A stretch of 62,430 bases of DNA, counting the filler, from Barthelona sp. PAP020 (Eukaryota), in assembly GCA_040182905.1 (NCBI GenBank). It is 7 parts of 7 records of this genome, joined end to end, with 100 filler letters (N's around TTAATTAATTAA, not from the genome) between each part and the next. Parts side by side here need not be neighbours in the genome. Positions count along the whole stretch, not along the records: positions 17,955 to 26,941 come from JARQWU010000442.1; 6 more parts are not named here. The stretch is one strand, 5' to 3'. The position numbers and the translations under genes were made by a program. Position 1 is the first letter of the stretch; every line of letters starts with the position of its first letter. The notes beneath the pieces are model-generated. The model was not told the DNA's origin. It was given only the letters and a program-made list of their open reading frames with translations, and ran no database searches. Positions 3,746 through 53,680 of this stretch are shown here, one piece after another.

Positions 3746-6700
3746 ATGCAAAATATTCTTTTAGATTATCTTCAAAACGATAACAAAAAATTAGTTAAGG
3801 CAAAATTAATTTCAGCAAATCAAATTAATTGGAAAGGAGATGAAAAATTAAATAAGATTGTATCTTTTGAAGGAAAATTTTTAATCAGCACAAATAAAGG
3901 TATAATATATTTGATTAATAAGAATTTTTCAATTAAAAAGGAATTAAATGATCACAACAATCAAAATATTTCTTTTTTAAATGTTGTAAACAATGATTTA
4001 ATAATTACAGCTTCGAATAATTTGATAGTCTATGACAATAAATTAAATATTGTCTTTACACTTGATCTTCAAAAATATTCTCCTATCAGAAGCATAATTA
4101 AATTGCCAACATCAAATAATGATTATTTTTTTATTGATAAAAGCGGAATAATGATGGAATATAATGGTGAACTTGATACCTTTAAAGAAACAACAGTTTT
4201 TCCAAATGACATTTGTTGGGACATAAAACTAAGTTCAAATAACAAGTATATATGTACATCTACTGATGGTTATGGATTAAAAATTGTAGATTCAACTCAA
4301 TTTGAAGAAGTATTTGCCTATAAGTTAAATAATCAAATGGTATGTTTTTTTATGTTTGATAAGGATACACAGCATCTTATATTAAGTACATCTGATGAGA
4401 AAATTATTATTATTGATTTGGAAAATAAAGAAGAAAAAATTGTTGATTCTTTTGATAGTTGTATCGTTGATATTATTGAATATCAAGAATATGAAGGAAA
4501 TTATTTGTTAGGTCTTTCAATTTATGGTTATCTTTATGTGATAGAGAAGGATAAAGGTATCATTGTTGAAACTATCAAACATGATGAGTTGTTGCTCATT
4601 GGTGGTTGTTATTCAAAACCTTTACACATGGTATTAACCTTAGGACGCAGTAAACAATTTTCTGTTGAAGCATATGATGTGGTTTTTCTTAAAGATAAGC
4701 TTATTGAGTATTTGAATGAGAATTTTGAAGAATTAGTTTATGAATTGGTCAAATTGTCTAATGGAGGAAAAGTTCATGTTTTATCCAGATTGTTAGAACT
4801 TGGTTTGATACATTTGATTGATGACAAGAAAATGGTGATAGTTTTATTGAGTAAAGGTCTTCATATTGATGATAAGGAGATGAAAATGCTTGAAGAGTAT
4901 GCAGTTGAATATTTTTCTGTAAATTATTTGGATAACGTATATTTCAACAGGATACTTGAGAAAAGAGGAAAAGACAACAAATTGCAACTCCAAAAACTGG
5001 AATGCAAATTGACAAATGAACTTTCAATTAAAGGACAAAATGAATTAGTATCTTTGCAACTGGAAATGCTTAATAAAGTAGATGAATTGAATGAACAAGT
5101 TTCAAAAGTTGAAGAAGAAAATCGAAGACTGCAACAACGAATTCTTGATATTGAAAACGAAAAAATTGAAGAGATGAAAAAGGCACAACAACAAATCTCA
5201 GACATTGAAAACGAAAAAACTGAAGAGATAAAGAAGATACAACAACAAATATCAGATATTGAAAATGAAAATAAGAAGTTGCAAAGTGAATCAGAGAATG
5301 AAGAAAAACTATCCATTGAACTAAAAGAAAGACTTGAACCAATACTGTTTAATATTGCACACAACGAAAAATACAATTTTTTTGAAAATTTTGGACAGTT
5401 TTTATTGGCAAATTTGAATGATTATGATAAAACCAATGATTTATTAAAGAAAACCACTCTGATTACCTTTGCAAGAAATTCTTTATATTACCTAATCAAA
5501 TTTAATTATTTAAAGCAATTCATCTTCAAGTTGTCAAATCCAATCACTTATAAAAAGAGTTTATTAATGGATTTCAAACTAGATCTGGAAAATCCTTTAT
5601 TTTTAAGAAATTTTCAACAAGGAACTATTAAAAATTTAGAATTTTCTTTAGATGAAAAATACTTTGTTAGTATTATGTTGAATGGTTCTTGTATCTTGTG
5701 GGATTTCATTGGATTCAAACCATTAAAAGTTTATGAAGATTTTGAGTCTGGATGCTTTTTTAAAGCTAAATTGATTTTGTTTAATTCTAACAAGATTCAA
5801 GTTGTAAAATATCCTTTTGAAGAAAAAGATAGCAAAAGTTTTGTTTTTGCTGAAAAAATTGATCCCAATATTTTTACCATGGATGATCAACATTTAATTC
5901 TCTCAATTTTGGTTGAAGATATGAAAGAATGTATGAAATATGACTTTTTAAAATATGATGTTGATTCAAATACTGTTAGCAAATTTGAAGTCACTGCTGA
6001 TTTTAGAAATGGAAAAAATTTGGAAAGAATCATTAAACTGAAGAATTCCAAAACATTTAATAAATTGATTGTATATACTGAAATGCGAGTTTTACTTGTT
6101 GATCTATCCAATTTGAATAAAATAAATACAATTATTCCTGAATTAAATAAGGATCGTTTACCAATTTTGTATGATATCAAAAAAAAATATCATTTGATGT
6201 GTTCAAATGTTGGTGAAGTTTTTGAAAAAAAAATTATTTGTCAAAAGATTTCTGATTCTTCTTTTGATTTCAAAACAACTTTTAGCTGCATTGATTGTCC
6301 CAAAAATATTCAAGAACTAAAGATTATTGATTCTGATTCAAAATATGATTTAATTTTATATTGTATTGTTACAACAGATAAATTATTGATTTATTTGAAT
6401 AATTCAATCATTCATGTGCAAGAGTATAATTTTTTCGATAACAACAGTCCTCGACAGAATAGAGTCTTATTTTCCCCAAAATTGTCTTATATGTTTATTC
6501 TTTTGCATAATTATAATTGTATGGCTCCTCCTTTTGACAGGAGATTTAATTTGAATGTATTTGAGATCGTATCTTCAGTAAAAGAACTGTTGGTTGATAG
6601 CAATGGTTCTGACTATTGGGAGCTGTTAAAGCCTTTGATTATTAAAGAGTTTAATCACTTAAAGGAGAAGAATCATAATGGTTTAATTGAAACTTTCAAG

Positions 6701-7921
6701 AGCAACTTGAAACCTTTATTATGTCATAAATTACAGTTGGAATTGGTTGACATTTTTCCAGAAGCTCAATTGAAAAATAATTTATATGATGCCATCATCA
6801 ATCAGAATATTGAAGGGGTTTCTGAACTTTTAGAAATGATTGATAATATTCACGAGGTCAATAATTGTTGTTTGAATGAAGTTATTGTCAAAAAAGAAGA
6901 TATTGTTGATGAAGAGTCTCTTATTACTGTTGATTTGATGATAAATACTTTGGAAAAAATGGATCTTTTGAAAAAATATAAAGATTCAGGGGAAATGGAC
7001 CAAATTCTCAAAATGTTCAACAAAATTGCCAAAAAGTATGGTAGTTTAAAACTAATGAGATTGATTACTGGAGACCTTTGTTTAAATATTAACGAATTTA
7101 AGAAAGCAATGAATATTCCAACACCAGCCATTCAAGCACACAAACACAATTTTGTCCTTTCTCCTTCCAAAAAGCGGTTATTCTATGTTGCATGTGAAAT
7201 GGGAAATTTGGAAATTATTGAGTTACTTCTTTCCAAAGGATTACATGCAGATGAATTCACAAATAATGGGTCTTCACCATTAAGCGTCTTGATTCAAAAC
7301 GGAAATTTTGAAACTGCAAAAATTTTAATCGAAAAACAGGCAAATCTTCAAGACACTTTTATTTTTGAATCCATGTATAGCTTGAATTATGAGAATATCA
7401 AGAATTGTATTCTGAAGCTAAATGTTGATAATTTTTTGGTTAAACATTATCAAAACTTTCCAATTAGTTTGTTTTTAATCGCTTTTGATCATTTAACCGC
7501 AACTAAAGCCATGTTTGAAACAAACTTCTTTGATCCTCTTGAATCTTTCCCCTGTCCTAGATCAACTGAAAGACAGACTTATATTGAAAGAGTCAATGAA
7601 TTTGGTACAGAAGAAATGGTTCAACTCTTTTTAAAACATGTCACCTTTGAAAAAATTGATTGTGATAGAGTTGATTGGCGCAATTGGCTCTTATCAAAAG
7701 ACGAACATGAAAAGTATGACGTTGATTCTGATTTTGCGCTCACCAGCGATTCAGATCTTGATTTATCTGATCTGGAAAGTGGGGATTCCAGTTCTGGATT
7801 TTCTGACGATATTGCAAAAGAGGATGATTTCGACATTATGCAATATTGTTGTGAAGAAGATTTTGGTGATGAGATCAATGAACAAATTGACCGTTTTTTC
7901 AAAGAAAAAAGAGCCCATTAA
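3746..7921 (+). CDS. WD40-like repeats / coiled-coil / second beta-propeller / ankyrin-repeat protein
   Basis: N-terminal WD-like beta repeats, QQQISDIENEK coiled-coil repeats, second WD-like region (LEFSLDEKYFVS...LWDF), ankyrin repeats (LFYVACEMGNLEIIELLLSKG, SPLSVLIQNGNFETAKILIEK). Confidence 0.7.
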   Translation: MQNILLDYLQNDNKKLVKAKLISANQINWKGDEKLNKIVSFEGKFLISTNKGIIYLINKNFSIKKELNDHNNQNISFLNVVNNDLIITASNNLIVYDNKLNIVFTLDLQKYSPIRSIIKLPTSNNDYFFIDKSGIMMEYNGELDTFKETTVFPNDICWDIKLSSNNKYICTSTDGYGLKIVDSTQFEEVFAYKLNNQMVCFFMFDKDTQHLILSTSDEKIIIIDLENKEEKIVDSFDSCIVDIIEYQEYEGNYLLGLSIYGYLYVIEKDKGIIVETIKHDELLLIGGCYSKPLHMVLTLGRSKQFSVEAYDVVFLKDKLIEYLNENFEELVYELVKLSNGGKVHVLSRLLELGLIHLIDDKKMVIVLLSKGLHIDDKEMKMLEEYAVEYFSVNYLDNVYFNRILEKRGKDNKLQLQKLECKLTNELSIKGQNELVSLQLEMLNKVDELNEQVSKVEEENRRLQQRILDIENEKIEEMKKAQQQISDIENEKTEEIKKIQQQISDIENENKKLQSESENEEKLSIELKERLEPILFNIAHNEKYNFFENFGQFLLANLNDYDKTNDLLKKTTLITFARNSLYYLIKFNYLKQFIFKLSNPITYKKSLLMDFKLDLENPLFLRNFQQGTIKNLEFSLDEKYFVSIMLNGSCILWDFIGFKPLKVYEDFESGCFFKAKLILFNSNKIQVVKYPFEEKDSKSFVFAEKIDPNIFTMDDQHLILSILVEDMKECMKYDFLKYDVDSNTVSKFEVTADFRNGKNLERIIKLKNSKTFNKLIVYTEMRVLLVDLSNLNKINTIIPELNKDRLPILYDIKKKYHLMCSNVGEVFEKKIICQKISDSSFDFKTTFSCIDCPKNIQELKIIDSDSKYDLILYCIVTTDKLLIYLNNSIIHVQEYNFFDNNSPRQNRVLFSPKLSYMFILLHNYNCMAPPFDRRFNLNVFEIVSSVKELLVDSNGSDYWELLKPLIIKEFNHLKEKNHNGLIETFKSNLKPLLCHKLQLELVDIFPEAQLKNNLYDAIINQNIEGVSELLEMIDNIHEVNNCCLNEVIVKKEDIVDEESLITVDLMINTLEKMDLLKKYKDSGEMDQILKMFNKIAKKYGSLKLMRLITGDLCLNINEFKKAMNIPTPAIQAHKHNFVLSPSKKRLFYVACEMGNLEIIELLLSKGLHADEFTNNGSSPLSVLIQNGNFETAKILIEKQANLQDTFIFESMYSLNYENIKNCILKLNVDNFLVKHYQNFPISLFLIAFDHLTATKAMFETNFFDPLESFPCPRSTERQTYIERVNEFGTEEMVQLFLKHVTFEKIDCDRVDWRNWLLSKDEHEKYDVDSDFALTSDSDLDLSDLESGDSSSGFSDDIAKEDDFDIMQYCCEEDFGDEINEQIDRFFKEKRAH
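5130..5275 (+). repeat. 54-bp coding tandem repeat (about 2.6 units)
   Basis: QQRILDIENEKIEEMKKA / QQQISDIENEKTEEIKKI / QQQISDIENE. Confidence 0.8.
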
Positions 7922-7936: not shown

Positions 7937-8386
7937 AGTGTTTGTAGTAAAGTGAACGGATTTCACACTAAAGACAATATAAATGTATTTAAGGTTTCTT
8001 CTTGCAATTTCTGATGTTAATGGATGTAGGTTAGCAGTGCATACCACGATTTTATCAAGGACACCCACAGAAGAATAATCAAAAAAGATTTTGGATGAAG
8101 GAAAAATTATAAAAGATCACCCTGCTCACATCTCAACCACAATAACCTCCCATATCTAAGAGTTGGATATAAACTGTTCAGAAATTAGTTTGGCAACAAC
8201 AAAAATTTCACTGAAAGACGAAGCAAAGGAAGAACAAACCTGAAATACTCCTGCATATATAAAGCTAATAATCTCAAAAGAATTAAAATTTTTAAACTGG
8301 AAAAGAGGAGATCAAAACAATAAGAATTTTATTTCTAAAGGACCACACCTCTTCAAAATATGATTTTTTTTTCCAGATTCAAAGAA
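7937..8386 (+). mobile_element. Non-autonomous element sharing termini with the YR retrotransposon (degenerate copy)
   Basis: Starts AGTGTTTGTAGTAAAGTGAACGGATTTCAC..AAAGACAATATAAATG, homologous to the element 5' end; internal block similar to 17440-17530; ends T-run-CCAGATTC like the next copy. Confidence 0.7.
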
Positions 8387-8798
8387 ATGTTCGCAGCAAA
8401 GCGGACGGATTTCACGTAAAAAACAACATTAATGCGTTTAAGGTTTCTTCTTACAATTTCTGAAATTAATGGGTATCAAAATTGAAAAGCTCAAGTAAAA
8501 ATAAACGTAATCGTAAGAATTCAAAGATTAAGGATACAAGTAAACAGGTTAGGACAACAGGGAATATCAAACTCCCAGAAAGAGAACAGAAGCGGATATA
8601 TTTAAAGTGAATCAAGGGGCTAAAGGAAAGTATTACACTTTTCTTTAAATACCCACCCTATCTAGACCGGAAGCATTTCTTTTCTTTTTTAAGAGTGTTC
8701 TGAACCATCCACGCAAAACTACTCAGTTGCAAATACCCCCAAACTCTAACCGAGAACAATTATGAGTCTTTTTTTTTTTTTTTCCAGACTCTTGTGAA
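8387..8798 (+). mobile_element. Non-autonomous element (full ~410 bp copy)
   Basis: 5' ATGTTCGCAGCAAAGCGGACGGATTTCAC; 3' GAGTGTTCTGAACCATCCACGC...CCCCAAACTCTAACC...GTGAA; both ends match the autonomous element ends. Confidence 0.85.
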
Positions 8799-8889
8799 GC
8801 GCAGCGGGCATTTCATAAGAGAGCAACAACAAGAAAATGTTTGGATGCGTTTGTGTGAGTCAAGCAAAACCCACAATATGCTAGCCTGT
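8799..8889 (+). repeat. Start of a second related repeat subfamily, cut by gap
   Basis: GCGCAGCGGGCATTTCATAAG...GAGTCAAGCAAAA matches 35730-35802 (ACGTAGCGGGCATTTCACAAG...GAATCAAGCAAAA). Confidence 0.6.
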
Positions 8890-16178: not shown

Positions 16179-17284
16179 TCACCATTAGATTAAAAAATAA
16201 TGTGTTAATAGTACATTAGTATATTCGTATTTGAGGTTTTCAAATAATAAATAATTTCATTTGCATAAGCAATCGCGTTGTTTAAAGGAATTGTTACTCA
16301 TCCAATCTTTCATTGCTTATTTAAAACGAATCAGAAGTAAAAATGTTTTTTTTTGTTGTTTTTTTGTTTTCAAGTAATTTTAAGTGTTTATCATTTGCAA
16401 ATTAGAGGTTCCTTACTTTTTAGCTGAATATCTGCAGTGATTTTCTGTGCTCTTATTCACTCAAAAGACTTCACCGGTCTTTCCCCCTAAACTTCTTGAA
16501 AAAGGAATAAAACTCCTGATGATAGTTTGAAGCGATAAAATGATTGTAATAAATTGAAATAACATTTTGTTTTGTCCTTTTTGAACCCCATGCGGAATTT
16601 TGTTTGCTTTATTCATTTCATCCTAATTAAATAGGATTATTCCACAAAGGTTAAAATTGTGAGGCACTGTGAGCATTTCAAAAGAGAAAGCAAAGTTGGG
16701 AAAATACATGAATAGTTTTTGAAAGTCAAATAATATCCACATTGCGCAAACTATCTATATTTTTATATTCCAAAGAAAATAGGATTTAAGAGTAGTTGTG
16801 CAAAGTTTCAGCGTAACAAGTACTTCACAGAAAAAGCAGTGGAAGAGATGGATTTCATGACAAAGACAAACTGAACGTTGTTTGCATTTTATTGTTGCAT
16901 GTTTGATTGACAAATAAAACCAAAAATGAATTGAAAAACTTTATGATTGAAACAACTATTCTTATTTTGGTTCTAGATTGTCAACTATGATCAAAAACTT
17001 TGAAATACTCTCTGTTAAATAATAGTTACCCAAACTTAAGTATGAAAAGAACAGTTTTTAATCTAAGTTACTCAGATTTCAACAAAGAAAAATGGTAGAC
17101 CATTTGATTGCCAAGTGGATCAAAGTAATCATCATCACAAACGTATTCAATATTGAACAAACTGGTGACAAGCAACCCAACTTAACAATGAATAAGCAAA
17201 GGTTTTGGTGTGATGTACTATTGTGTCTTGTAAAACAAGCCAAATTCTCATTCTGTAATCTATGTAAGAGCTTTTGTATCATTT

Positions 17285-17692
17285 GAGTTCACAGCAAAGC
17301 GGAAGGATTTCACGTAAAAGACAATATAAATGTGTTTAAGGTTTCTTCTTGCAATTTCTGATATTAATGGATATCAAAATTGAAAGTGAAATAACAACAT
17401 AGAATCAAATGATTCAGGGTAATAAGGACGCAAATGTGCATAGTAGATTAGCAAGGAATACAAGATTTGATCAAGGAAACCCAAAGAAGAACAATCAAAA
17501 TTTATTAGCAAGAAGGAAAAAAATTATTAAACTTTTATTTAGATAATCACCACATCCACACCTAAGGTATTTCTTTATTTTTAAGAGTGTTCTTAACCAT
17601 CCACGCAAAACGACTCAGTTGCAAGTACCCCCAAACTCTAACCGAGAACAATAAAGATCTTTATAAAAATTTATTATTATATTTCGTGTGAA
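17285..17692 (+). mobile_element. Non-autonomous element (full ~408 bp copy)
   Basis: 5' GAGTTCACAGCAAAGCGGAAGGATTTCAC; 3' CCCCAAACTCTAACCGAGAACAATAAAG...TTTATTATTATATTTCGTGTGAA, homologous to the autonomous 3' end. Confidence 0.9.
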
Positions 17693-17700
17693 TAGCAAAG

Positions 17701-17854
17701 AGTGTTCGTAGCAAAGCGGACGGATTTCACGTAAAAGACAATATAAATGTGTTTAAGGTTTCTTCTTGCAATTTCTGATATTAATGGATATCAAAATTGA
17801 AAGTGAAATAACAACAAAGAATCAAATGATTCAGGGTAATAAGGATGCAAGTGT
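17701..17854 (+). mobile_element. Non-autonomous element, tandem next copy, cut by gap
   Basis: AGTGTTCGTAGCAAAGCGGACGGATTTCAC is identical to the first 30 nt of the autonomous element; near-identical to 17285-17438. Confidence 0.9.
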
Positions 17855-17954
17855 NNNNNNNNNNNNNNNNNNNNNNNNNNNNNNNNNNNNNNNNNNNNTT
17901 AATTAATTAANNNNNNNNNNNNNNNNNNNNNNNNNNNNNNNNNNNNNNNNNNNN

Positions 17955-18740
17955 GTACGGCCAGTTGAGGCCATGCAACATTTCCAGTCTTATTGTTTGA
18001 CTCGTTGGTGTTGAGTCCCACGGTGCACCCTCTACGAACTTCTTCGCGGTCTTCTTCATTAAATCAATCTGCGGAGACAGATCCACCCCCGCATGGCTTA
18101 AAGTTTTCAAAATATCACCGAGCAGCATGGCTGCTGGGATCATAAGTTTTGCTTTTTTAAAGGAGAACGCCCTTTTGCTTCCAGGGCGCTCTTCATAAAA
18201 TTTAATTCCACTGAATATCTCCTCCATCCATTGATGGTGGCGATACACAGATTCCAGTAAATTATTTTCTAACTTTTCCTCCTTATTCTTCTCCTTTTCT
18301 CTTTCTTTAGTCCAATTTTCATTTTGGCTTTTTAACAAATTCATGACTTCCTCTATTTGGTCTGAAAGGAGCGACGTTTGCTCCTCTAATGTCTGGAAAT
18401 TTTGGTTAATTTCGGCGTTAGGTTCTTCAGTCATAGGAAGGTTCTTTCCCAGGGCGAAACTTAAACAAAATAGTGATATAGAGCTGTTTAGAATATTGTT
18501 TACTTGACCTCATTTATCAATCAGATAAATTCACGTTCTTTCATTGTGTTCCGAATTAAAATAATTCTGATTGGAAACTAATTTTTACTTTACTTACAGC
18601 TTATGTAACGTTCTTATTCTTATTATAAATCATTGTATATGTATTGGATCATATTTAACAATCAGAAGTGCAAGAATAGAACCTAGAACAATGTTTATTT
18701 TGTCTTTTGGGTGAAATCCGTCCGCTTTGCTACGAACACT
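17955..18740 (-). mobile_element. YR retrotransposon copy A (5' part only; ORF start at 18434)
   Basis: 5' UTR plus first ~160 codons; protein identical to copy C over this stretch. Confidence 0.9.
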
Positions 18741-18849
18741 TTCACTCGACAAAATAATAAACATTTGATAAATTCACTCGACAAAATAATAAACATTTGA
18801 TAAAAGCTTTTTCACTCGACAAAATAATAAACATTTGATAAAAGCTTTT
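18741..18849 (-). repeat. Triple reiteration of the element 3' terminus
   Basis: TTCACTCGACAAAATAATAAACATTTGATAAA starts at 18741 (32 nt), 18773 (38 nt) and 18811 (continues into copy B). Confidence 0.95.
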
Positions 18850-21800
18850 ACTGTTCAAGGTTAGAGTTTGGGTTACTTGTCACTGGTCTGTTGTGCGTAG
18901 ATTGGTTCAGAACTCTCCTGTCCAGAATCCTTCTGAATCGAATCTGCGTACACAGAACGAGCACAGTACAATTCAACCATTGAGGTAGACTTCCATCCGC
19001 CCATCTGCTTCAGGACGTCCAAATCCCCTGGTGAATTCCCATTCTCCAATGCCTTGAACATAGACCTTGCCCTTCCTCTTCTAAACGAGTGCAGGGTCAA
19101 GGGATAATTTAAATTCATTTCTTTATTGAACCTATTCAATTCTTTGTTTAAATTCTTATTAATCTCTTTAATCTTATTTCCATCGTTTGTTAAACTTTTT
19201 ACTTTTCCATTCTTTACTCTCCATTCATAATTACCAAATATCTTCTTTTCTGTGTCTGTCTTTCCTTTTAACTCTTTCCAAAATATTGACACCTCTTTAA
19301 CATTGCTCACCTTTGGGCAATACATAAATATTAACGCTGTTGTGGGTCCAATTTTTACTTCAATTGAACCTCCCTCAATATCACTTCTTCTCGAACATGT
19401 AAAATACATTGTACATGCCGCATCTATCATATCGTACTTCATTTCTTCTGGTTGGCTGCTATTCGTAATTATGAATCTGCATAATTGTGCTAAATGTCTT
19501 CTACGAATAGCTGACTTCGGTCTGTGATCTTCAGCTGTTGGTGGTCTTAACCTCCTTTGCTTTGCCATCATTAATTTCTTCATGTTCTGGAATCCTGGTC
19601 CAGCACTCCAGCCAATAGCTTTCCAAAAGTACATCACTCCTGCGTATACTCTTCCTAACGTTTCAGTTTTCATCCTAAAATTTCCGTTGGTATCCTTTCT
19701 TTCACCTTCTGAATCGATAAATTCATGAAGCAGTGACTCCAATGTGTGATCAACTTTATCCATATCCTTACTTCTTCCCCTCTTCTTACAATAGCTTAAG
19801 AATCGGGTATAGTATCCTTCGTACTGATCCCATGTAGCTTTTGCTACTCCTAACTTCATAGTCTCCCACACTAAGGAATCACTCCATGAGTACTTCTCGA
19901 ATTCCTTCTTTACCTCGTCATAATACCCTATATCACCTTCAAATAGTCCTTGGAATATCTTCGATCTGATTTCTATACTTCTATTTCCATCAACATAATT
20001 CACTAACGGTCTCCATGCAGGGTAATCTCCATAACAAATTCCTTCAACTTCAACATCAACCCCAAATCGGGCTGCTCTTAATATTAAATCTAAAACTACA
20101 TTTTCAATGGTTTCCTTATAATACATCTTATTTCCAATTTTGCGAACTGCAGTGTAAAATAGGATTGAATCGTATCCGATTGCTGCCCAATCCTCACCTA
20201 GCTCTTCTTCTTCCTTATCTTCTAATTCTCTTTTCTCTTCATTAACTTCTTCTTCTTCTTTCCATAAATCATCTCTTAATTCTACCGGAAACTCTCCGGT
20301 CTTTATCCTAACTTTGTCTGCTATTCTCCTTATCGATTTTGACTTCCCTTGCAAATCTCTTCCTGTCCTATTCTTTAATATTGGACAACGTCTTAATGCT
20401 GTATACGACGGATACATATAACTTGGTACTTTGAATGACTCAGGACAAAATGATATATCCGAAAATACAACTCCTTTTGTTACCTCCACATTCTTGCCTC
20501 TTGACAACATATCTGCCACACTATTCCTTTCAGTAGGAATCCAGTACGGAAGTATTTGGCAGTTTAACTCTACTACCAACTCCCAAATTTTCTTTGACAG
20601 TGAACTCAATTTCATATTTGAACTCTTTTGTTTCCTAAATGCAGCCAAGGCGTTTTGATTATCAATCAACCATATCCAACACGCGTCCTTGGCTTGCTTC
20701 TTCATTTTCATTAATGCTTTCCATAAAGCTTCTAATTCAATAACAGCAATATTCTTTTCTTCGTCTTTAACTACTTCCTTATGCATATTAATCTTACTTT
20801 GATCTTTCTGTTCTAGTACCCACCCGATACCCTTTAATGAGGCATCAGTGGCAATCACTCCTGTAACTACCCTCGGGCATAACTCTCCTTTAATCTCTTC
20901 TTTCAAAACTTCTTCTAACTTTTCTTTTAAACAACTAACAATCTCTAATCTTCTCTTTCCATGCTTACTTATCAATTCTTTTAAATCTTTTGATCTATAA
21001 TAATGTTTCTTGTGATGTATCACATTTCCTAATTCCAGTGCAATTCCTCTATATCTCTGAGAAACGATACTCGCAGCTTGTAACTTCCCTTCCAATGAGA
21101 TTGCACTTTCAATCGTTAAATCGTCTAACATCTTTAACATCTTCTTTCTTTTCAATTCTGGCAAACTAATTATCCTGTTCTTTGTGTCTATCTTAAATCC
21201 TAAATACTCAACTTCTGTTGTTGGTTTTTGTACCTTTGATTCTTTAACCTTAAATCCTACTTGCTTCAGTAATTTCATCATCGTTTCAACGTTCTTCTTG
21301 CATTCCTCTAAAGTATTCCCTCCAATCAGTAAATCGTCCACATATTGCAAAACAAATATTCCTTTTGCTCTTGCAGCATCCACTGGCACTTGCAATGCCA
21401 GTGAAAAAATCTGAGCTGATACTGATGATCCGAACGGTAACCTTTGAGCTGCATATTTTTCTCCATCAACTTCCACTACTGTCTGAGACAACCATTCATC
21501 ACTAAGTGGTATATGTGTATACCCTTCCTTTATGTCTAAGACCGCGGCATATTTAGGTATTAATGGGAAATATCTATAACAATTAATTTCATGTGGCCAC
21601 ATCATACTTACCGAATTTAATGGTGTACAGTCCAATATTGGTCTAATTGTTCCATCTTGTTTTGGAACTGCACCCAAAGCTGCTTCACGTTCTACAGGAC
21701 CTTTATACTTTGTTAAAACATTTTCTTCACCTTCAGTCCATTTTGATAACACTTCTTTTAACCTATCACCAGCCCAGTGATCTACCTTATTTTCTCCTTT

Positions 21801-23012
21801 TAATTCATCGTCAATAAAAGTTGGGGCTGCAGTAACAATTTCTTCAAGTAAGTTTCTTTGTTCTTTGCTGTATCTCAACTCTTTTGCTAACTTCATGAAA
21901 GCATCAGGATTCCAAGCCCCTGTGCTTGTTTCTCCAATGGTAACAGCTACGTTCGACTTTTTTAGCACAAGTCGGCTGTTAGATTCAATCTTCAGATTTT
22001 GATCTGATTTCGACCTGTTTTTTATGTCTTCACTTTTGCCTTTAGTCAGTTTTTTTTTGATAAATTGCAGTTGTTGTTTTTCAACCTCTATTTTTTCTTT
22101 CGTTCTTAGCAATCCATCGAGCTTCTTATCAATAGTATCAAAAAAATAAATGTTGTTGCTTTTACCCTTTTCAAACTTGTTTGACCTCTGATAATCTTCC
22201 GGCTTTGAGAAGCCGTTTAGGTCAGGGTACGGCCAGTTGAGGCCATGCAACATTTCCAGTCTTATTGTTTGACTCGTTGGTGCTGAGTCCCACGGTGCAC
22301 CCTCTACGAACCTCTTTGCGGTCTTCTTCATTAAATCAATCTGCGGAGACAGATCCACCCCCGCATGGCTTAAAGTTTTCAAAATATCACCGAGCAGCAT
22401 GGCTGCTGGGATCATTAGCTTTGCTTTCTTAAAGGAGAACGCCCTTTTGCTTCCAGGGCGCTCTTCATAAAATTTAATTCCACTGAATATCTCCTCCATC
22501 CATTGATGGTGGCGATACACAGATTCCAGTAAATTATTTTCTAAATTTTCCTCCTTATTCTTCTCCTTTTCTCTTTCTTTAGTCCAATTGTCATTTTGGC
22601 TTTTTAACAAATTCATGATTTCCTCTATTTGGTCTGAAAGGAGCGACGTTTGCTCCTCTAATGTCTGGAAATTTTGGTTAATTTCGGCGTTAGGTTCTTC
22701 AGTCATAGGAAGGTTCTTTCCCAGGGCGAAACTTAAACAAAATAGTGATATAGAGCTGTTTAGAATATTGTTTACTTGACCCCATTTATCAATCAGATAA
22801 ATTCACGTTCTTTCATTGTGTTCCGAATTAAAATAATTCTGATTGGAAACTAATTTTTACTTTACTTACAGCTTATGTAACGTTCTTATTCTTATTATAA
22901 ATCATTGTATATGTATTGGATCATATTTAACAATCAGAAGTGCAAGAATAGAACCTAGAACAATGTTTATTTTGTCTTTTGGGTGAAATCCGTCCGCTTT
23001 GCTACGAACACT
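18811..23012 (-). mobile_element. Complete ~4.2 kb tyrosine-recombinase (DIRS-order) retrotransposon, copy B
   Basis: Unit defined by a 4201-bp period with copy C; ~305 nt 5' UTR, single ORF, ~62 nt 3' UTR. Confidence 0.92.
18873..22706 (-). CDS. Single polyprotein: Gag-like coiled-coil, RT, RNase H, linker, tyrosine recombinase (1277 aa)
   Basis: RT: LDIKEGYTHIPL, LPFGSSVSAQIF, YVDDLLI, YLGF; RNase H: IATDASLKGIG, IAVIELEAL, IDNQNAL, NSVADMLSR; YR: ATWDQYEGYYTRF, CSRRSD (R), HSFRRG (HxxR), GGWKS (W), VELY (Y). Confidence 0.95.
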   Translation of the reverse strand: MTEEPNAEINQNFQTLEEQTSLLSDQIEEIMNLLKSQNDNWTKEREKEKNKEENLENNLLESVYRHHQWMEEIFSGIKFYEERPGSKRAFSFKKAKLMIPAAMLLGDILKTLSHAGVDLSPQIDLMKKTAKRFVEGAPWDSAPTSQTIRLEMLHGLNWPYPDLNGFSKPEDYQRSNKFEKGKSNNIYFFDTIDKKLDGLLRTKEKIEVEKQQLQFIKKKLTKGKSEDIKNRSKSDQNLKIESNSRLVLKKSNVAVTIGETSTGAWNPDAFMKLAKELRYSKEQRNLLEEIVTAAPTFIDDELKGENKVDHWAGDRLKEVLSKWTEGEENVLTKYKGPVEREAALGAVPKQDGTIRPILDCTPLNSVSMMWPHEINCYRYFPLIPKYAAVLDIKEGYTHIPLSDEWLSQTVVEVDGEKYAAQRLPFGSSVSAQIFSLALQVPVDAARAKGIFVLQYVDDLLIGGNTLEECKKNVETMMKLLKQVGFKVKESKVQKPTTEVEYLGFKIDTKNRIISLPELKRKKMLKMLDDLTIESAISLEGKLQAASIVSQRYRGIALELGNVIHHKKHYYRSKDLKELISKHGKRRLEIVSCLKEKLEEVLKEEIKGELCPRVVTGVIATDASLKGIGWVLEQKDQSKINMHKEVVKDEEKNIAVIELEALWKALMKMKKQAKDACWIWLIDNQNALAAFRKQKSSNMKLSSLSKKIWELVVELNCQILPYWIPTERNSVADMLSRGKNVEVTKGVVFSDISFCPESFKVPSYMYPSYTALRRCPILKNRTGRDLQGKSKSIRRIADKVRIKTGEFPVELRDDLWKEEEEVNEEKRELEDKEEEELGEDWAAIGYDSILFYTAVRKIGNKMYYKETIENVVLDLILRAARFGVDVEVEGICYGDYPAWRPLVNYVDGNRSIEIRSKIFQGLFEGDIGYYDEVKKEFEKYSWSDSLVWETMKLGVAKATWDQYEGYYTRFLSYCKKRGRSKDMDKVDHTLESLLHEFIDSEGERKDTNGNFRMKTETLGRVYAGVMYFWKAIGWSAGPGFQNMKKLMMAKQRRLRPPTAEDHRPKSAIRRRHLAQLCRFIITNSSQPEEMKYDMIDAACTMYFTCSRRSDIEGGSIEVKIGPTTALIFMYCPKVSNVKEVSIFWKELKGKTDTEKKIFGNYEWRVKNGKVKSLTNDGNKIKEINKNLNKELNRFNKEMNLNYPLTLHSFRRGRARSMFKALENGNSPGDLDVLKQMGGWKSTSMVELYCARSVYADSIQKDSGQESSEPIYAQQTSDK

Positions 23013-26000
23013 TCACTCGACAAAATAATAAACATTTGATAAAAGCTTTTACTGTTCAAGGTTAGAGTTTGGGTTACTTGTCACTGGTCTGTTGTGCGTA
23101 GATTGGTTCAGAACTCTCCTGTCCAGAATCCTTCTGAATCGAATCTGCGTACACAGAACGAGCACAGTACAATTCAACCATTGAGGTAGACTTCCATCCG
23201 CCCATCTGCTTCAGGACGTCCAAATCCCCTGGTGAATTCCCATTCTCCAATGCCTTGAACATAGACCTTGCCCTTCCTCTTCTAAACGAGTGCAGGGTCA
23301 AGGGATAATTTAAATTCATTTCTTTATTGAACCTATTCAATTCTTTGTTTAAATTCTTATTAATCTCTTTAATCTTATTTCCATCGTTTGTTAAACTTTT
23401 TACTTTTCCATTCTTTACTCTCCATTCATAATTACCAAATATCTTCTTTTCTGTGTCTGTCTTTCCTTTTAACTCTTTCCAAAATATTGACACCTCTTTA
23501 ACATTGCTCACCTTTGGGCAATACATAAATATTAACGCTGTTGTGGGTCCAATTTTTACTTCAATTGAACCTCCCTCAATATCACTTCTTCTCGAACATG
23601 TAAAATACATTGTACATGCCGCATCTATCATATCGTACTTCATTTCTTCTGGTTGGCTGCTATTCGTAATTATGAATCTGCATAATTGTGCTAAATGTCT
23701 TCTACGAATAGCTGACTTCGGTCTGTGATCTTCAGCTGTTGGTGGTCTTAACCTCCTTTGCTTTGCCATCATTAATTTCTTCATGTTCTGGAATCCTGGT
23801 CCAGCACTCCAGCCAATAGCTTTCCAAAAGTACATCACTCCTGCGTATACTCTTCCTAACGTTTCAGTTTTCATCCTAAAATTTCCGTTGGTATCCTTTC
23901 TTTCACCTTCTGAATCGATAAATTCATGAAGCAGTGACTCCAATGTGTGATCAACTTTATCCATATCCTTACTTCTTCCCCTCTTCTTACAATAGCTTAA
24001 GAATCGGGTATAGTATCCTTCGTACTGATCCCATGTAGCTTTTGCTACTCCTAACTTCATAGTCTCCCACACTAAGGAATCACTCCATGAGTACTTCTCG
24101 AATTCCTTCTTTACCTCGTCATAATACCCTATATCACCTTCAAATAGTCCTTGGAATATCTTCGATCTGATTTCTATACTTCTATTTCCATCAACATAAT
24201 TCACTAACGGTCTCCATGCAGGGTAATCTCCATAACAAATTCCTTCAACTTCAACATCAACCCCAAATCGGGCTGCTCTTAATATTAAATCTAAAACTAC
24301 ATTTTCAATGGTTTCCTTATAATACATCTTATTTCCAATTTTGCGAACTGCAGTGTAAAATAGGATTGAATCGTATCCGATTGCTGCCCAATCCTCACCT
24401 AGCTCTTCTTCTTCCTTATCTTCTAATTCTCTTTTCTCTTCATTAACTTCTTCTTCTTCTTTCCATAAATCATCTCTTAATTCTACCGGAAACTCTCCGG
24501 TCTTTATCCTAACTTTGTCTGCTATTCTCCTTATCGATTTTGACTTCCCTTGCAAATCTCTTCCTGTCCTATTCTTTAATATTGGACAACGTCTTAATGC
24601 TGTATACGACGGATACATATAACTTGGTACTTTGAATGACTCAGGACAAAATGATATATCCGAAAATACAACTCCTTTTGTTACCTCCACATTCTTGCCT
24701 CTTGACAACATATCTGCCACACTATTCCTTTCAGTAGGAATCCAGTACGGAAGTATTTGGCAGTTTAACTCTACTACCAACTCCCAAATTTTCTTTGACA
24801 GTGAACTCAATTTCATATTTGAACTCTTTTGTTTCCTAAATGCAGCCAAGGCGTTTTGATTATCAATCAACCATATCCAACACGCGTCCTTGGCTTGCTT
24901 CTTCATTTTCATTAATGCTTTCCATAAAGCTTCTAATTCAATAACAGCAATATTCTTTTCTTCGTCTTTAACTACTTCCTTATGCATATTAATCTTACTT
25001 TGATCTTTCTGTTCTAGTACCCACCCGATACCCTTTAATGAGGCATCAGTGGCAATCACTCCTGTAACTACCCTCGGGCATAACTCTCCTTTAATCTCTT
25101 CTTTCAAAACTTCTTCTAACTTTTCTTTTAAACAACTAACAATCTCTAATCTTCTCTTTCCATGCTTACTTATCAATTCTTTTAAATCTTTTGATCTATA
25201 ATAATGTTTCTTGTGATGTATCACATTTCCTAATTCCAGTGCAATTCCTCTATATCTCTGAGAAACGATACTCGCAGCTTGTAACTTCCCTTCCAATGAG
25301 ATTGCACTTTCAATCGTTAAATCGTCTAACATCTTTAACATCTTCTTTCTTTTCAATTCTGGCAAACTAATTATCCTGTTCTTTGTGTCTATCTTAAATC
25401 CTAAATACTCAACTTCTGTTGTTGGTTTTTGTACCTTTGATTCTTTAACCTTAAATCCTACTTGCTTCAGTAATTTCATCATCGTTTCAACGTTCTTCTT
25501 GCATTCCTCTAAAGTATTCCCTCCAATCAGTAAATCGTCCACATATTGCAAAACAAATATTCCTTTTGCTCTTGCAGCATCCACTGGCACTTGCAATGCC
25601 AGTGAAAAAATCTGAGCTGATACTGATGATCCGAACGGTAACCTTTGAGCTGCATATTTTTCTCCATCAACTTCCACTACTGTCTGAGACAACCATTCAT
25701 CACTAAGTGGTATATGTGTATACCCTTCCTTTATGTCTAAGACCGCGGCATATTTAGGTATTAATGGGAAATATCTATAACAATTAATTTCATGTGGCCA
25801 CATCATACTTACCGAATTTAATGGTGTACAATCCAATATTGGTCTGATTGTTCCATCTTGTTTTGGAACTGCACCCAAAGCTGCTTCACGTTCTACAGGA
25901 CCTTTATACTTTGTTAAAACATTTTCTTCACCTTCAGTCCATTTTGATAACACTTCTTTTAACCTATCACCAGCCCAGTGATCTACTTTATTTTCTCCTT

Positions 26001-26941
26001 TTAATTCATCGTCAATAAAAGTTGGGGCTGCAGTAACAATTTCTTCAAGTAAGTTTCTTTGTTCCTTGCTGTATCTCAATTCTTTTGCTAACTTCATGAA
26101 AGCATCAGGATTCCAAGCTCCTGTGCTTGTTTCTCCAATGGTGACGGCTACGTTTGACCTTTTTAACACAAGTCGGCTGTCCGATTCAATCTTCAGATTT
26201 TGATCTGATTTCGACCTGTTTTTTATGTCTTCACTTTTGCCTTTAGTCAGTTTTTTTTTGATAAATTGCAGTTGTTGTTTTTCAACCTCTATCTTTTCTT
26301 TCGTTCTTAGCAATCCATCGAGCTTCTTATCAATAGTATCAAAAAAATAAATGTTGTTGCTTTTACCCTTTTCAAACTTGTTTGACCTCTGATGATCTTC
26401 CGGCTTTGAGAAGCCGTTTAGGTCAGGGTACGGCCAGTTGAGGCCATGCAACATTTCCAGTCTTATTGTTTGACTCGTTGGTGTTGAGTCCCACGGTGCA
26501 CCCTCTACGAACTTCTTCGCGGTCTTCTTCATTAAATCAATCTGCGGAGACAGATCCACCCCCGCATGGCTTAAAGTTTTCAAAATATCACCGAGCAGCA
26601 TGGCTGCTGGGATCATAAGTTTTGCTTTTTTAAAGGAGAACGCCCTTTTGCTTCCAGGGCGCTCTTCATAAAATTTAATTCCACTGAATATCTCCTCCAT
26701 CCATTGATGGTGGCGATACACAGATTCCAGTAAATTATTTTCTAACTTTTCCTCCTTATTCTTCTCCTTTTCTCTTTCTTTAGTCCAATTTTCATTTTGG
26801 CTTTTTAACAAATTCATGACTTCCTCTATTTGGTCTGAAAGGAGCGACGTTTGCTCCTCTAATGTCTGGAAATTTTGGTTAATTTCGGCGTTAGGTTCTT
26901 CAGTCATAGGAAGGTTCTTTCCCAGGGCGAAACTTAAACAA
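23012..26941 (-). mobile_element. YR retrotransposon copy C (5' UTR cut by gap)
   Basis: Direct head-to-tail repeat of copy B. Confidence 0.92.
23074..26907 (-). CDS. Gag-RT-RNase H-YR polyprotein (1277 aa), second intact copy
   Basis: Same motifs as copy B; 8 amino-acid differences, all in the first ~250 residues. Confidence 0.95.
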   Translation of the reverse strand: MTEEPNAEINQNFQTLEEQTSLLSDQIEEVMNLLKSQNENWTKEREKEKNKEEKLENNLLESVYRHHQWMEEIFSGIKFYEERPGSKRAFSFKKAKLMIPAAMLLGDILKTLSHAGVDLSPQIDLMKKTAKKFVEGAPWDSTPTSQTIRLEMLHGLNWPYPDLNGFSKPEDHQRSNKFEKGKSNNIYFFDTIDKKLDGLLRTKEKIEVEKQQLQFIKKKLTKGKSEDIKNRSKSDQNLKIESDSRLVLKRSNVAVTIGETSTGAWNPDAFMKLAKELRYSKEQRNLLEEIVTAAPTFIDDELKGENKVDHWAGDRLKEVLSKWTEGEENVLTKYKGPVEREAALGAVPKQDGTIRPILDCTPLNSVSMMWPHEINCYRYFPLIPKYAAVLDIKEGYTHIPLSDEWLSQTVVEVDGEKYAAQRLPFGSSVSAQIFSLALQVPVDAARAKGIFVLQYVDDLLIGGNTLEECKKNVETMMKLLKQVGFKVKESKVQKPTTEVEYLGFKIDTKNRIISLPELKRKKMLKMLDDLTIESAISLEGKLQAASIVSQRYRGIALELGNVIHHKKHYYRSKDLKELISKHGKRRLEIVSCLKEKLEEVLKEEIKGELCPRVVTGVIATDASLKGIGWVLEQKDQSKINMHKEVVKDEEKNIAVIELEALWKALMKMKKQAKDACWIWLIDNQNALAAFRKQKSSNMKLSSLSKKIWELVVELNCQILPYWIPTERNSVADMLSRGKNVEVTKGVVFSDISFCPESFKVPSYMYPSYTALRRCPILKNRTGRDLQGKSKSIRRIADKVRIKTGEFPVELRDDLWKEEEEVNEEKRELEDKEEEELGEDWAAIGYDSILFYTAVRKIGNKMYYKETIENVVLDLILRAARFGVDVEVEGICYGDYPAWRPLVNYVDGNRSIEIRSKIFQGLFEGDIGYYDEVKKEFEKYSWSDSLVWETMKLGVAKATWDQYEGYYTRFLSYCKKRGRSKDMDKVDHTLESLLHEFIDSEGERKDTNGNFRMKTETLGRVYAGVMYFWKAIGWSAGPGFQNMKKLMMAKQRRLRPPTAEDHRPKSAIRRRHLAQLCRFIITNSSQPEEMKYDMIDAACTMYFTCSRRSDIEGGSIEVKIGPTTALIFMYCPKVSNVKEVSIFWKELKGKTDTEKKIFGNYEWRVKNGKVKSLTNDGNKIKEINKNLNKELNRFNKEMNLNYPLTLHSFRRGRARSMFKALENGNSPGDLDVLKQMGGWKSTSMVELYCARSVYADSIQKDSGQESSEPIYAQQTSDK

Positions 26942-27041
26942 NNNNNNNNNNNNNNNNNNNNNNNNNNNNNNNNNNNNNNNNNNNNTTAATTAATTAANNN
27001 NNNNNNNNNNNNNNNNNNNNNNNNNNNNNNNNNNNNNNNNN

Positions 27042-35412: not shown

Positions 35413-35729
35413 CATCAGTAGCAAAATGGACGGATTTGACTCAAAGACAATATAAGTGAGTTTAGGATTTCTTTTTTGTAATTACTTGTATTAATGAGAA
35501 TCAAAATTGAAAAACTCAAGCAATAAAACGGAATCTTAGGTATTCTAAGTAAATAGGAACAAAGAAAAAAGAACATCAAAGTGTTACAAAGAGAACATAA
35601 GTGGAGACATTTAAAGTGAAGCCATGGGCTAAAGGAAAGTATTACACTTTACTTTAAATACACGCCCCATCTAAACCGGAAGCATTTTTTTTTCAAGACT
35701 GTTCTGAACCACCCAAAATGAATTGTGAA
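35413..35729 (+). mobile_element. Degenerate non-autonomous element copy
   Basis: GTAGCAAAATGGACGGATTTGACTCAAAGACAATATAA 5' end; internal GGGCTAAAGGAAAGTATTACACTTT shared with the 8387 copy; GTTCTGAACCA...GTGAA 3' end. Confidence 0.8.
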
Positions 35730-35838
35730 ACGTAGCGGGCATTTCACAAGGAGGGAAAAAGAAAAGCGTGAAGAAATGCGCCAGAATTTGAATCAAGCAA
35801 AATTTCTCGTATTTCAAAATTTATCAAATAATAAAACA
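35730..35838 (+). repeat. Second related subfamily start, cut by gap
   Basis: Matches 8799-8889. Confidence 0.6.
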
Positions 35839-53580: not shown

Positions 53581-53680
53581 NNNNNNNNNNNNNNNNNNNN
53601 NNNNNNNNNNNNNNNNNNNNNNNNTTAATTAATTAANNNNNNNNNNNNNNNNNNNNNNNNNNNNNNNNNNNNNNNNNNNN

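What the first reader, a model, noticed from the sequence alone, without database searches (positions are those of the whole stretch)
18811..23012. Minimal tyrosine-recombinase retrotransposon with one Gag-RT-RNase H-YR polyprotein and no LTR/ITR/split repeats
Seen: one uninterrupted 1277-aa ORF with intact RT (YVDD), RNase H (D-E-D-D) and YR (R, HxxR, W, Y) catalytic motifs, in two intact copies. No protease motif is evident, and there are only ~305 nt 5' and ~62 nt 3' of non-coding DNA with no long terminal repeats. Known: DIRS, Ngaro and PAT elements typically split Gag, RT/RH and YR into separate or overlapping ORFs and carry ITR+ICR or split direct repeats; VIPER/TATE place YR before RT. 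Inference: this may be a distinct, compact YR-retroelement lineage whose fused RT-recombinase replicates differently.
Basis: partly seen in the sequence, partly recalled or inferred. Interest (0 to 1): 0.9.

Follow-up and report, generated by a model that had tools for sequence, protein, structure and literature searches.

The report
Single-ORF tyrosine-recombinase retrotransposon in tandem
An intact jumping gene of the tyrosine-recombinase retrotransposon kind, with all its enzymes in one long gene, lies as head-to-tail copies on a contig made only of itself, so its seeming lack of terminal repeats is likely an effect of that layout; it is a very divergent relative of known Ngaro-type elements and probably not a new way of replicating.

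Summary
The ORF is real. It has 1277 codons on the minus strand, in two intact copies, with RT (YVDD), RNase H and a Cre-like tyrosine recombinase (YR). There is no protease, DDE integrase or methyltransferase.

The "305 nt 5' / 62 nt 3'" is only the 367-nt spacer between head-to-tail units. The window is seven ~8.8-kb contigs joined by artificial N-linkers. The element contig (17955-26941) is 2.14 units of element and nothing else, so its true ends cannot be seen there.

Three other contigs end in ~380-450-nt head-to-tail mini-units. These pair diverged copies of the element's 5' start with its 3' end, like the "solo AB" repeats of Ngaro elements.

By sequence the lineage is isolated. Only 3 of 1.84 billion representative proteins reach E<=1e-30, all from one barthelonid (metamonad) transcriptome. 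The RT clade has 99% support and a long stem inside the YR-retroelement radiation.

Lack of protease and in-frame RT-YR are normal for this order. Single-ORF forms are already reported (TATE in Bodo saltans).

Verdict: a new, divergent Ngaro-like variant. There is no evidence for a different replication mode. Interest is moderate to low.

The parts
17955..26941 (-). Repeat-only contig: 2.14 head-to-tail units (period 4201 nt) of the element
   Evidence: unit 18811-23011 matches 23012-26941 at 99.4% and 17955-18739 at 98.7%; N-linkers lie on both sides
18873..22706 (-). ORF copy A, 1277 aa, intact
23074..26907 (-). ORF copy B, 1277 aa, intact. It differs from A at 24 codons, all within codons 30-359
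17955..18434 (-). Third copy, first 160 codons only, cut by the linker. Identical to copy B (0 of 480 nt differ; 9 of 480 differ from A)
21717..22706 (-). Copy A aa 1-330: N-terminal K/E/L-rich helical region, 'Gag' by position only. No Cys, no family hit. Under purifying selection
   Evidence: dN/dS 0.12 over codons 1-360
21147..21686 (-). Copy A aa 341-520: reverse transcriptase (YVDD 455-458)
   Evidence: RVT_1 E 2.4e-21; HIV-2 RT 1.6e-13, Ty3 RT 3e-12
20496..20879 (-). Copy A aa 610-737: RNase H (D621, E657, D682, D732)
   Evidence: RT_RNaseH 1.7e-4, RVT_3 0.0073, both below cutoff; aligned with RH of other YR-element proteins
19833..20495 (-). Copy A aa 738-958: conserved region of unknown function between RH and YR; not a recognisable methyltransferase
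   Evidence: conserved in P0002, P0003, P0038; hhalign vs Dam regions, prob 0.4%; (pLDDT<50)
18939..19832 (-). Copy A aa 959-1256: two-domain tyrosine recombinase (R1106, H1206xxR1209, W1238, Y1247)
   Evidence: (Cre, XerA, XerH, lambda Int, IntI)
22707..23073 (-). 367-nt spacer between ORF B stop and ORF A start: 62 nt 3' part plus 305 nt 5' part
18435..18872 (-). 438-nt spacer between ORF A stop and the third copy. It has 3 copies instead of 1 of a 32-38-nt repeat (18740-18849)
22983..23011 (-). 29-mer GTGTTCGTAGCAAAGCGGACGGATTTCAC at the start of the 5' part. It is also at 18711-18739 (-), exact at 17702-17730 (+), and with 2 mismatches at 8387-8415 (+). It is flanked by GTGAA/TTCAC. Candidate recombination or cis site (inferred)
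16847..17854 (+). Right end of another contig: about 2.4 head-to-tail mini-units of 417-440 nt. Each has an R block (like element 5' start nt 1-~125), an unrelated middle, and a B block (like the last ~45 nt of the ORF plus the 3' part)
7938..8889 (+). Right end of another contig: two mini-units of the same kind, starting 16 nt after the stop of ORF 3746..7921. A second R type follows (8776-8889)
35418..35838 (+). Right end of another contig: one mini-unit, then the second R type (from about 35706)
17855..17954 (.). Artificial linker N44-TTAATTAATTAA-N44. A second copy is at 26942-27041, and four more occur in the window

Best explanation
The region holds 2.14 head-to-tail units of an intact tyrosine-recombinase (DIRS-order) retrotransposon with one 1277-codon ORF, which likely propagates as Ngaro-type elements are thought to. 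That cycle, all of it inferred, would run as follows. An RNA longer than one unit would be made from a tandem or AB-flanked copy. It would be translated into one unprocessed polyprotein (N-terminal helical part, RT, RNase H, an unknown 220-aa region, YR). It would be reverse-transcribed, and the YR would recombine the end-to-end junction with the genome, often at a resident copy, giving head-to-tail arrays.

Shown directly: the ORF, its domains and catalytic residues, the tandem layout, the artificial linkers, and the conserved 5'-start and 3'-end blocks shared with short mini-units on other contigs.

Inferred: that the 3'-part/5'-part junction acts like the B-A junction of split-direct-repeat elements and supplies terminal redundancy; that the GTGAA-N24-TTCAC region around the conserved 29-mer is the recombination site; and that the mini-units are solo or non-autonomous AB units.
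For: Domains.

No MT: Pfam finds none at E<=1, and hhalign against the Dam regions of 7 hits gives prob 0.4%. No protease or rve.

Relatedness:
- The RT-RH tree has 61 rows. The YR-type RTs separate from the 8 gypsy RTs at 99%.
- The window groups with P0038, P0002 and P0003 at 99%.
- Of the 50 best or longest hits scanned out of the 150 listed, 0 carry rve, 8 carry Dam, and 4 carry integrase or SAM-like domains fused to RT.

Layout: the tandem and the linkers are shown.

Mini-units:
- The mini-units share the R block (73-87% identity; E 1.4e-16, 3.7e-11, 1.3e-10, 5.5e-9, 1.2e-4, 4.3e-4).
- They share the B block (78%; E 3.7e-11 and 2.9e-6).
- One 200-nt alignment crosses the junction contiguously at 76.5%.
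- The arrays start at the first base of the R block next to unrelated flanks.

Selection: dN/dS is 0.12 between copies in codons 1-360, p 5.6e-7.

Expression of relatives: three relatives are transcripts, and two of them are complete 1208-1209-aa ORFs.

Literature (passages read):
- Ngaro has the structure A1-[ORFs]-B1A2B2 and solo AB repeats (PMC8547959).
- YR elements lack PR and IN, and YR can be in frame with RT-RH (PMC3783388).
- Ngaro has no MT and carries its internal repeats downstream of YR (PMC4157794).
Against: - No end of an array of this very family is seen, so split direct repeats are not shown for it.
- The mini-units belong to diverged relatives. Their middle part is not alignable to the rest of the element's 5' part: 201, 78, 168 and 147 of 300 shuffles score as well. 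'A = whole 5' UTR' therefore rests only on similar length (298-306 vs 305 nt).
- The junction hairpin is significant in the element (z -2.4 and -3.0) but not in the diverged relative (z +0.9 and +1.5). The GTGAA/TTCAC arms are present in 4 of 6 junctions only.
- The position of the clade among YR-type RTs is unresolved (supports 82-84%, long branches). No named Ngaro, PAT, DIRS or VIPER reference could be included.
- The tandem could be an assembler's walk round a cycle: copies A and B are identical over codons 360-1277.
- No RNA or read data could be had.
Confidence: 0.7

Rival explanations
1. This is a repeat-less, minimal YR retroelement that needs no terminal, inverted or split repeats, because its fused RT-recombinase uses a different replication route. 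One such route would be an internal promoter with direct use of a unit-length cDNA.
For: - Within one unit there is no direct repeat longer than 27 nt and no inverted repeat longer than 21 nt.
- The clade sits on a long separate stem.
- A conserved 220-aa region of unknown function lies between RH and YR.
Against: - The unit borders are arbitrary cuts in a tandem on a repeat-only contig.
- In that tandem every 5' part is preceded by a 3' part, which is functionally the same redundancy as split repeats.
- Relatives form AB-like head-to-tail units.
- Fused RT-YR and lack of protease are ordinary for the order (PMC3783388, passages).
Confidence: 0.1
2. The tandem is an assembly product. The genome would hold canonical single Ngaro-type copies (A1-ORF-B1-A2-B2) of two variants, and the assembler walked the ORF-B-A cycle twice. 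The classification stays the same; only the array is unreal.
For: - The contig reads B'-A-B, and its two ends are identical over the compared 480 nt.
- Codons 360-1277 are identical between the copies.
- The contig is one of many ~8.8-kb pieces, three of which break off in related repeats.
Against: - Two copies of an identical stretch of more than 2.7 kb on one contig normally need long-range read support.
- The two spacers differ (367 vs 438 nt).
- The diverged mini-units are also head-to-tail, in unique flanks.
- Tandem arrays are reported for TATE, and self-insertion for DIRS-1 (PMC6681497 and PMC5006619, passages).
Confidence: 0.2
3. The contig represents an extrachromosomal circular multimer (a dimer of variants A and B), that is, a replication intermediate or episome rather than a chromosomal array.
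For: The contig is a closed path: an 8473-nt dimer plus a 514-nt overlap, of which the 480 nt compared show no mismatch. No flank is attached.
Against: - A heterodimer of two variants with 7.5% synonymous divergence in the 5' third is not expected from one cDNA.
- For DIRS-1 the extrachromosomal cDNA was found to be mostly linear and single-stranded (PMC7192593, abstract).
- A repeat-only contig is equally expected from inside a long array.
Confidence: 0.05

Closest known systems
Ngaro superfamily (order DIRS), e.g. the Cafeteria burkhardae Ngaros (PMC8547959) and fungal Ngaros (PMC3783388)
   Same: - The order is Gag-position, then RT, RH, YR.
- There is no methyltransferase, protease or DDE integrase.
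- YR can be in frame with RT-RH.
- Relatives in this genome form units that join a 5' block to a 3' block, like solo AB repeats.
   Different: - The Gag-position part is fused in frame too, giving one 1277-aa ORF.
- A1-[ORFs]-B1A2B2 is not shown for this family; only full-length head-to-tail units are seen.
- RT identity to any non-barthelonid protein is about 25-35%.
- A conserved unknown 220-aa region lies between RH and YR.
PAT-like elements (nematode Pat1 group). Nearest named hits are P0060 from Strongyloides papillosus and P0043/P0115 from Panagrolaimus
   Same: - The order is RT-RH-(middle)-YR.
- P0060 is a 1260-aa predicted protein with the same layout, alignable from RT to YR (hhalign prob 99.3%).
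   Different: - PAT elements are defined by an MT domain and a Gag zinc finger (PMC4157794, passages). Neither is present here.
- That P0060, P0043 and P0115 are PAT elements is my guess from their hosts, not a tool result.
TATE of Bodo saltans (PMC6681497, passages)
   Same: It has a single ORF holding Gag-like, YR and RT/RH (1464 aa), and copies lie in tandem, which hampers finding terminal repeats.
   Different: The domain order there is Gag-YR-RT/RH; here YR is last. The host is a kinetoplastid.
DIRS-1 of Dictyostelium (PMC5006619, PMC7192593)
   Same: It has a YR instead of an integrase and prefers to insert into its own copies.
   Different: - DIRS-1 has inverted terminal repeats plus an internal complementary region, overlapping ORFs and an MT domain.
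- None of these is found here, apart from a short imperfect palindrome across the junction.

Membership tests
Order DIRS (tyrosine-recombinase retrotransposons) | LTR-retroelement-type RT with RNase H | tested here: met
   - RVT_1 E 2.4e-21.
- PDB profile hits to HIV-2 RT (1.6e-13) and Ty3 RT (3e-12).
- RH residues D621/E657/D682/D732.
- The RT groups with YR-type RTs, apart from the 8 gypsy RTs, at 99%.
Order DIRS (tyrosine-recombinase retrotransposons) | Tyrosine recombinase in place of DDE integrase; no aspartic protease | tested here: met
   - The Cre-like fold matches at E 6.9e-8.
- R, HxxR, W and Y are present.
- The homologous domain passes Pfam's cutoff in P0002 (57.4 bits) and P0003 (28.9 bits); the window's own hit is 23.1 bits, below the 27.1 cutoff.
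- There is no rve or RVP hit at E<=1.
Ngaro superfamily | No methyltransferase domain | tested here: met
   There is no Dam/MT hit at E<=1 or E<=10. hhalign of aa 740-960 against the Dam regions of 7 hits gives prob 0.4%.
Ngaro superfamily | Order Gag - RT/RH - YR on one strand | tested here: met
   The 'Gag' part is identified by position only.
Ngaro superfamily | Split direct repeats A1-[ORFs]-B1A2B2, with the internal repeats downstream of YR | tested here: inconclusive
   - Only full-length head-to-tail units are seen, and no array end.
- Diverged relatives show AB-like units, but their middle part is not alignable to this element's 5' part.
Ngaro superfamily | RT/YR phylogeny with Ngaro reference elements | not testable with these tools
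   No named Ngaro, PAT, DIRS or VIPER reference sequences were available. The position among unnamed YR-type RTs is unresolved.
PAT-like elements | MT domain; zinc finger in Gag (Pat1) | tested here: not met
   no MT; no Cys in aa 1-340.
DIRS1-like elements | Inverted terminal repeats plus internal complementary region; MT domain | tested here: not met
   - No inverted repeat longer than 21 nt occurs in the unit.
- There is no MT.
- The only inverted feature is an imperfect ~110-nt palindrome across the junction.
VIPER/TATE | YR encoded upstream of RT/RH | tested here: not met
   RT lies at aa 341-520 and YR at aa 959-1256.

The most novel reading that the evidence does not exclude
A barthelonid-specific, deep-branching superfamily of YR retroelements that has given up split repeats altogether. 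It lives as head-to-tail arrays made by its recombinase acting on a palindromic end-to-end junction (GTGAA-N24-TTCAC around an invariant AGCNNAGCGG core). The neighbouring unit supplies the promoter and the terminal redundancy. The whole machine, including a new 220-aa domain, is made as one unprocessed polyprotein.
Probability: 0.2. Interest if true: 0.6.

Novelty: new variant of a known kind. Interest (0 to 1): 0.35.

Why it matters
- My two Barthelona searches found no paper on retrotransposons in barthelonids: 0 papers with Barthelona plus retrotransposon. YR retroelements in other metamonads were not searched for.
- This lineage is very isolated by sequence. It therefore adds a deep branch for reconstructing how RT, RNase H and tyrosine recombinases were combined.
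- It is compact, intact and under selection, and relatives are transcribed. That makes it a possible model for how these elements regenerate their ends.
- It also serves as a warning: tandem, repeat-only contigs in linker-joined assemblies can mimic "repeat-less" elements.

Tried and rejected
- Whole genome: none is held.
- Sequencing runs: none was listed and no RNA holder was listed.
- Word-index protein searches. Two gave only P0002 and P0003 plus gypsy RTs. The third, on aa 760-1277, returned nothing, not even P0002/P0003, so it was uninformative.
- Metagenome contigs: 0 relatives by protein and 0 exact matches to a 20-mer of the conserved site. Viral contigs: 0.
- Rfam at E<=1 on 16500-27100: 0 matches. 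tRNA scan of the window: 0, so there is no tRNA-like primer site or tRNA target.
- The bacterial promoter/terminator scan is not meaningful for a eukaryote.
- Middle region aa 738-958. It is not an MT and not a second RNase H (prob 0.3%). The Atlas best score is 0.79, and AF2 gives pLDDT<50.
- N-terminal fold: AF2 mean pLDDT is 44.5, all-helical and unusable, so no fold search was made.
- Idea that the mini-unit middle equals the rest of the 5' UTR: not supported by alignment.
- Early guess that the host was an amoebozoan (from WRKY and ELMO): dropped after the nearest proteins proved to be barthelonid.
- Pfam scan of the other 98 listed hits: the call exceeded the residue limit and was not repeated. 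Domain labels therefore cover 50 of the 150 hits.
- Earlier notes of this scan by place and by sequence: nothing.
- Literature: 0 papers with Ngaro plus 'single open reading frame'. Of the 24 papers with 'tyrosine recombinase', 'retrotransposon' and 'single ORF', 15 were listed. I checked three of them: only PMC6681497 concerned a YR element, while the mentions in PMC2685390 and PMC8547959 were irrelevant. Repbase and Dfam, and the reviews of Poulter and colleagues, were not available to me.

Full report
**What is there**

On the minus strand lie two uninterrupted 1277-codon ORFs, at 18873..22706 (copy A) and 23074..26907 (copy B). A third copy is cut after 160 codons, at 17955..18434.

Domain evidence for the protein:
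- Pfam gives RVT_1 at aa 348-506 (E 2.4e-21). It gives weak RNase H hits at aa 617-735 and a Phage_integrase hit at aa 1184-1249 that is below the curated cutoff (23.1 vs 27.1 bits).
- A profile of the protein and its two full-length relatives hits HIV-2 RT (1.6e-13) and Ty3 RT (3e-12) in the PDB.
- An AF2 model of aa 740-1277 is confident only for aa ~959-1256. That part matches Cre recombinase first (Foldseek E 6.9e-8, prob 1.0), then XerA, XerH, lambda Int and IntI.
- No protease, DDE integrase or methyltransferase family is hit at E<=1. The only D[ST]G is at aa 1260.

The coding part of the observation therefore holds.

**What the surroundings are**

The window is not one piece of chromosome.
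- Six identical linkers (N44-TTAATTAATTAA-N44) cut it into seven contigs of 8889, 8865, 8987, 8797, 8772, 8770 and 8750 bp. Sequences across a linker are not neighbours.
- The element contig (17955-26941) holds nothing but the element: 2.14 head-to-tail units with a period of 4201 nt.
- The other spacer is 438 nt, because a 32-38-nt repeat is present three times instead of once.
- The truncated third copy is identical to copy B (0 of 480 nt differ) and differs from A at 9 of 480. The contig therefore reads B'-A-B.

This contig cannot show the ends of the element. It also cannot distinguish a chromosomal array from an assembler's walk round a cycle or from a circular multimer. Within one unit there is no direct repeat longer than 27 nt and no inverted repeat longer than 21 nt. 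In the tandem, however, every 5' part is preceded by a 3' part.

**The two copies**
- They differ at 24 codons, all between codons 30 and 359: 16 synonymous and 8 non-synonymous.
- Codons 360-1277 are identical.
- Over codons 1-360, dN/dS is 0.12 (Fisher p 5.6e-7) and pS is 7.5%.
- The N-terminal part is therefore a selected coding region, and the copies are mosaics (recombination or conversion; not followed up).
- That N-terminal part has no family hit (KIP1 at E 0.0044, a coiled-coil-like match), no cysteine and no usable fold model (pLDDT 44.5). 'Gag' is a name by position only.

**Relatives of the ends**

Three other contigs break off, at their right ends, in sequence related to the element's spacer.
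- An R block matches the first ~80-125 nt of the 5' part. It lies at 17702-17779 (85%, E 1.4e-16), 17287-17362 (81%), 7938-8020 (79%), 8388-8432 (87%), 35418-35455 (85%) and 16847-16916 (73%).
- A B block matches the last ~45 nt of the ORF plus the 3' part. It lies at 17585-17678 (78%, E 3.7e-11) and 8693-8758 (78%).
- At 17585-17779 the B and R blocks are contiguous exactly as in the tandem spacer (200 nt, 76.5%).
- These blocks form head-to-tail mini-units of ~380-450 nt (R, an unrelated middle, then B). The array starts at the first base of R next to unrelated flanks, once 16 nt after a host gene's stop codon.
- The 29-mer GTGTTCGTAGCAAAGCGGACGGATTTCAC at the start of R is exact in a unit that is otherwise ~80% identical.
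- In the literature, Ngaro elements are A1-[ORFs]-B1A2B2 and leave isolated 'AB' repeats (PMC8547959, passages). The mini-units have that form.

Limits:
- The mini-units belong to diverged relatives, not to this family.
- Their middle part is no more similar to the rest of the element's 5' part than shuffled sequence: 201, 78, 168 and 147 of 300 shuffles score as well.
- Only its length (298-306 nt from R start to B start, against 305 nt) suggests equivalence.

**The junction**
- Across the spacer the element's 3' part and 5' start form an imperfect ~110-nt palindrome. DNA fold z-scores are -2.4 and -3.0 on the two strands.
- The same region of the diverged relative does not fold better than shuffles (z +0.9 and +1.5).
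- Short arms GTGAA/TTCAC flank an invariant AGCNNAGCGG core in 4 of 6 junctions aligned.

I take this as a candidate recombinase site, no more.

**Relatives of the protein**

HMMER with aa 78-1277 against 1.84 billion representatives gave 9693 hits at E<=0.001 but only three at E<=1e-30. These are P0038 (508 aa, 74% identical over aa 363-862), P0002 (1209 aa) and P0003 (1208 aa), the last two about 40% identical.
- All three come from the transcriptome of one barthelonid (Metamonada).
- P0002 and P0003 are complete ORFs with the same layout, and their YR domains pass Pfam's cutoff.
- The next hits (E 7.7e-27 and weaker) match RT-RH only.

I scanned 50 of the 150 listed hits: the best 33 plus 17 chosen mostly for length.
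- None has a DDE integrase.
- 8 have a Dam-type MT.
- 4 have integrase or SAM-like domains fused to RT. These include P0039 (1192 aa) and P0060 (1260 aa, a nematode), which have the same order and size.
- P0060 aligns from RT to YR (prob 99.3%).

In an RT-RH tree of 61 rows, the YR-type RTs separate from 8 gypsy RTs (99%). The window, P0038, P0002 and P0003 form a 99% clade on a stem of 1.51 substitutions per site. Their place among the others is unresolved (82-84%, long branches). Named reference elements were not available.

The region aa 738-958 is conserved in all four relatives. It is not a recognisable MT, not an RNase H duplicate, and not otherwise identifiable.

**Comparison with what is known**
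- By content and order (no MT; RT-RH-YR; YR last) the element is Ngaro-like.
- It fails the defining features of PAT (MT, zinc finger), of DIRS1-like elements (ITR plus ICR, MT) and of VIPER/TATE (YR first).
- Lack of protease and integrase, and YR in frame with RT-RH, are described as usual (PMC3783388, passages).
- A single ORF holding all three functions, and tandem copies that hide terminal repeats, are described for TATE (PMC6681497, passages).
- Another note of this scan reports a giant single-ORF YR element in a dinoflagellate (e1-7627974; not checked by me).
- The Atlas lists clusters of 1224-1268-aa proteins with RVT_1 and Phage_integrase in fungi, cnidarians and sponges (leads only).
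- What is unusual here is the in-frame fusion of the N-terminal part in this order, the unknown middle region, the sequence isolation, and the host group. For that host group my two searches found no report of retrotransposons (passages of PMC11316075 mention transposon homologues only in passing).

**How it most likely works (inferred)**
1. The 3' part plus the start of the next 5' part acts as the B-A junction of split-repeat elements. A transcript longer than one unit carries terminal redundancy.
2. One polyprotein is made.
3. cDNA is made, and its ends are completed on the internal junction.
4. The YR recombines the junction with the genome, often next to resident copies, which would give the observed head-to-tail order, including units of different sub-types side by side.

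For DIRS-1 the intermediate was found to be mostly linear single-stranded cDNA (PMC7192593, abstract). Whether that holds here is open.

**Verdict**

This is a real, intact and selected YR retrotransposon. It is a divergent Ngaro-like variant with a single ORF. The 'no repeats, new replication' reading rests on an arbitrary cut through a tandem and is not supported. Interest is moderate to low unless array ends show that the family truly lacks split repeats.

Noticed in passing
window 8890-8989, 17855-17954, 26942-27041, 35839-35938, 44711-44810, 53581-53680: The window is seven contigs of 8750-8987 bp joined by identical N44-TTAATTAATTAA-N44 linkers. Any 'neighbourhood' reading across these points is invalid.
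   Followed up: yes
window 18873-22706 vs 23074-26907: Mosaic divergence between the two copies. All 24 differing codons lie in codons 30-359 (pS 7.5%), and the remaining 918 codons are identical. This suggests recombination or conversion between sub-families, or assembly effects.
   Followed up: partly
window 8776-8889 and 35706-35838: A second type of element start is present: TTGTGAA-N13-TTCA(C/T)AA arms around (A/G)CG(C/T)AGCGGGCAT. It lies directly after type-I mini-units and runs into the contig ends, so it is probably another family of the same kind of element.
   Followed up: partly
window 18740-18849 vs 22997-23043: A 32-38-nt repeat just before the conserved 29-mer is present 3 times in one spacer and once in the other. 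Possibly slippage at the end-to-end junction.
   Followed up: partly
P0041 (967 aa) and P0099 (1518 aa): Barthelonids hold at least two further, very different RT(-YR) families. They are 25-26% identical to this one in RT-RH only. P0041 has RT fused to a YR.
   Followed up: partly
window 27445-28662 (-): A 405-aa ORF carries two WRKY DNA-binding domains (E 1.7e-39) in what is apparently a metamonad-like protist.
   Followed up: no
window 27042-27188 (+): This contig starts inside an ORF whose end reads like an Hsp70/BiP C-terminus finishing in YDEL. This is my reading of the sequence and was not tested.
   Followed up: no
window 28855-29077: A 223-N gap lies inside a contig. The repeat tool's 'family D1' is an artefact of N runs.
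   Followed up: no
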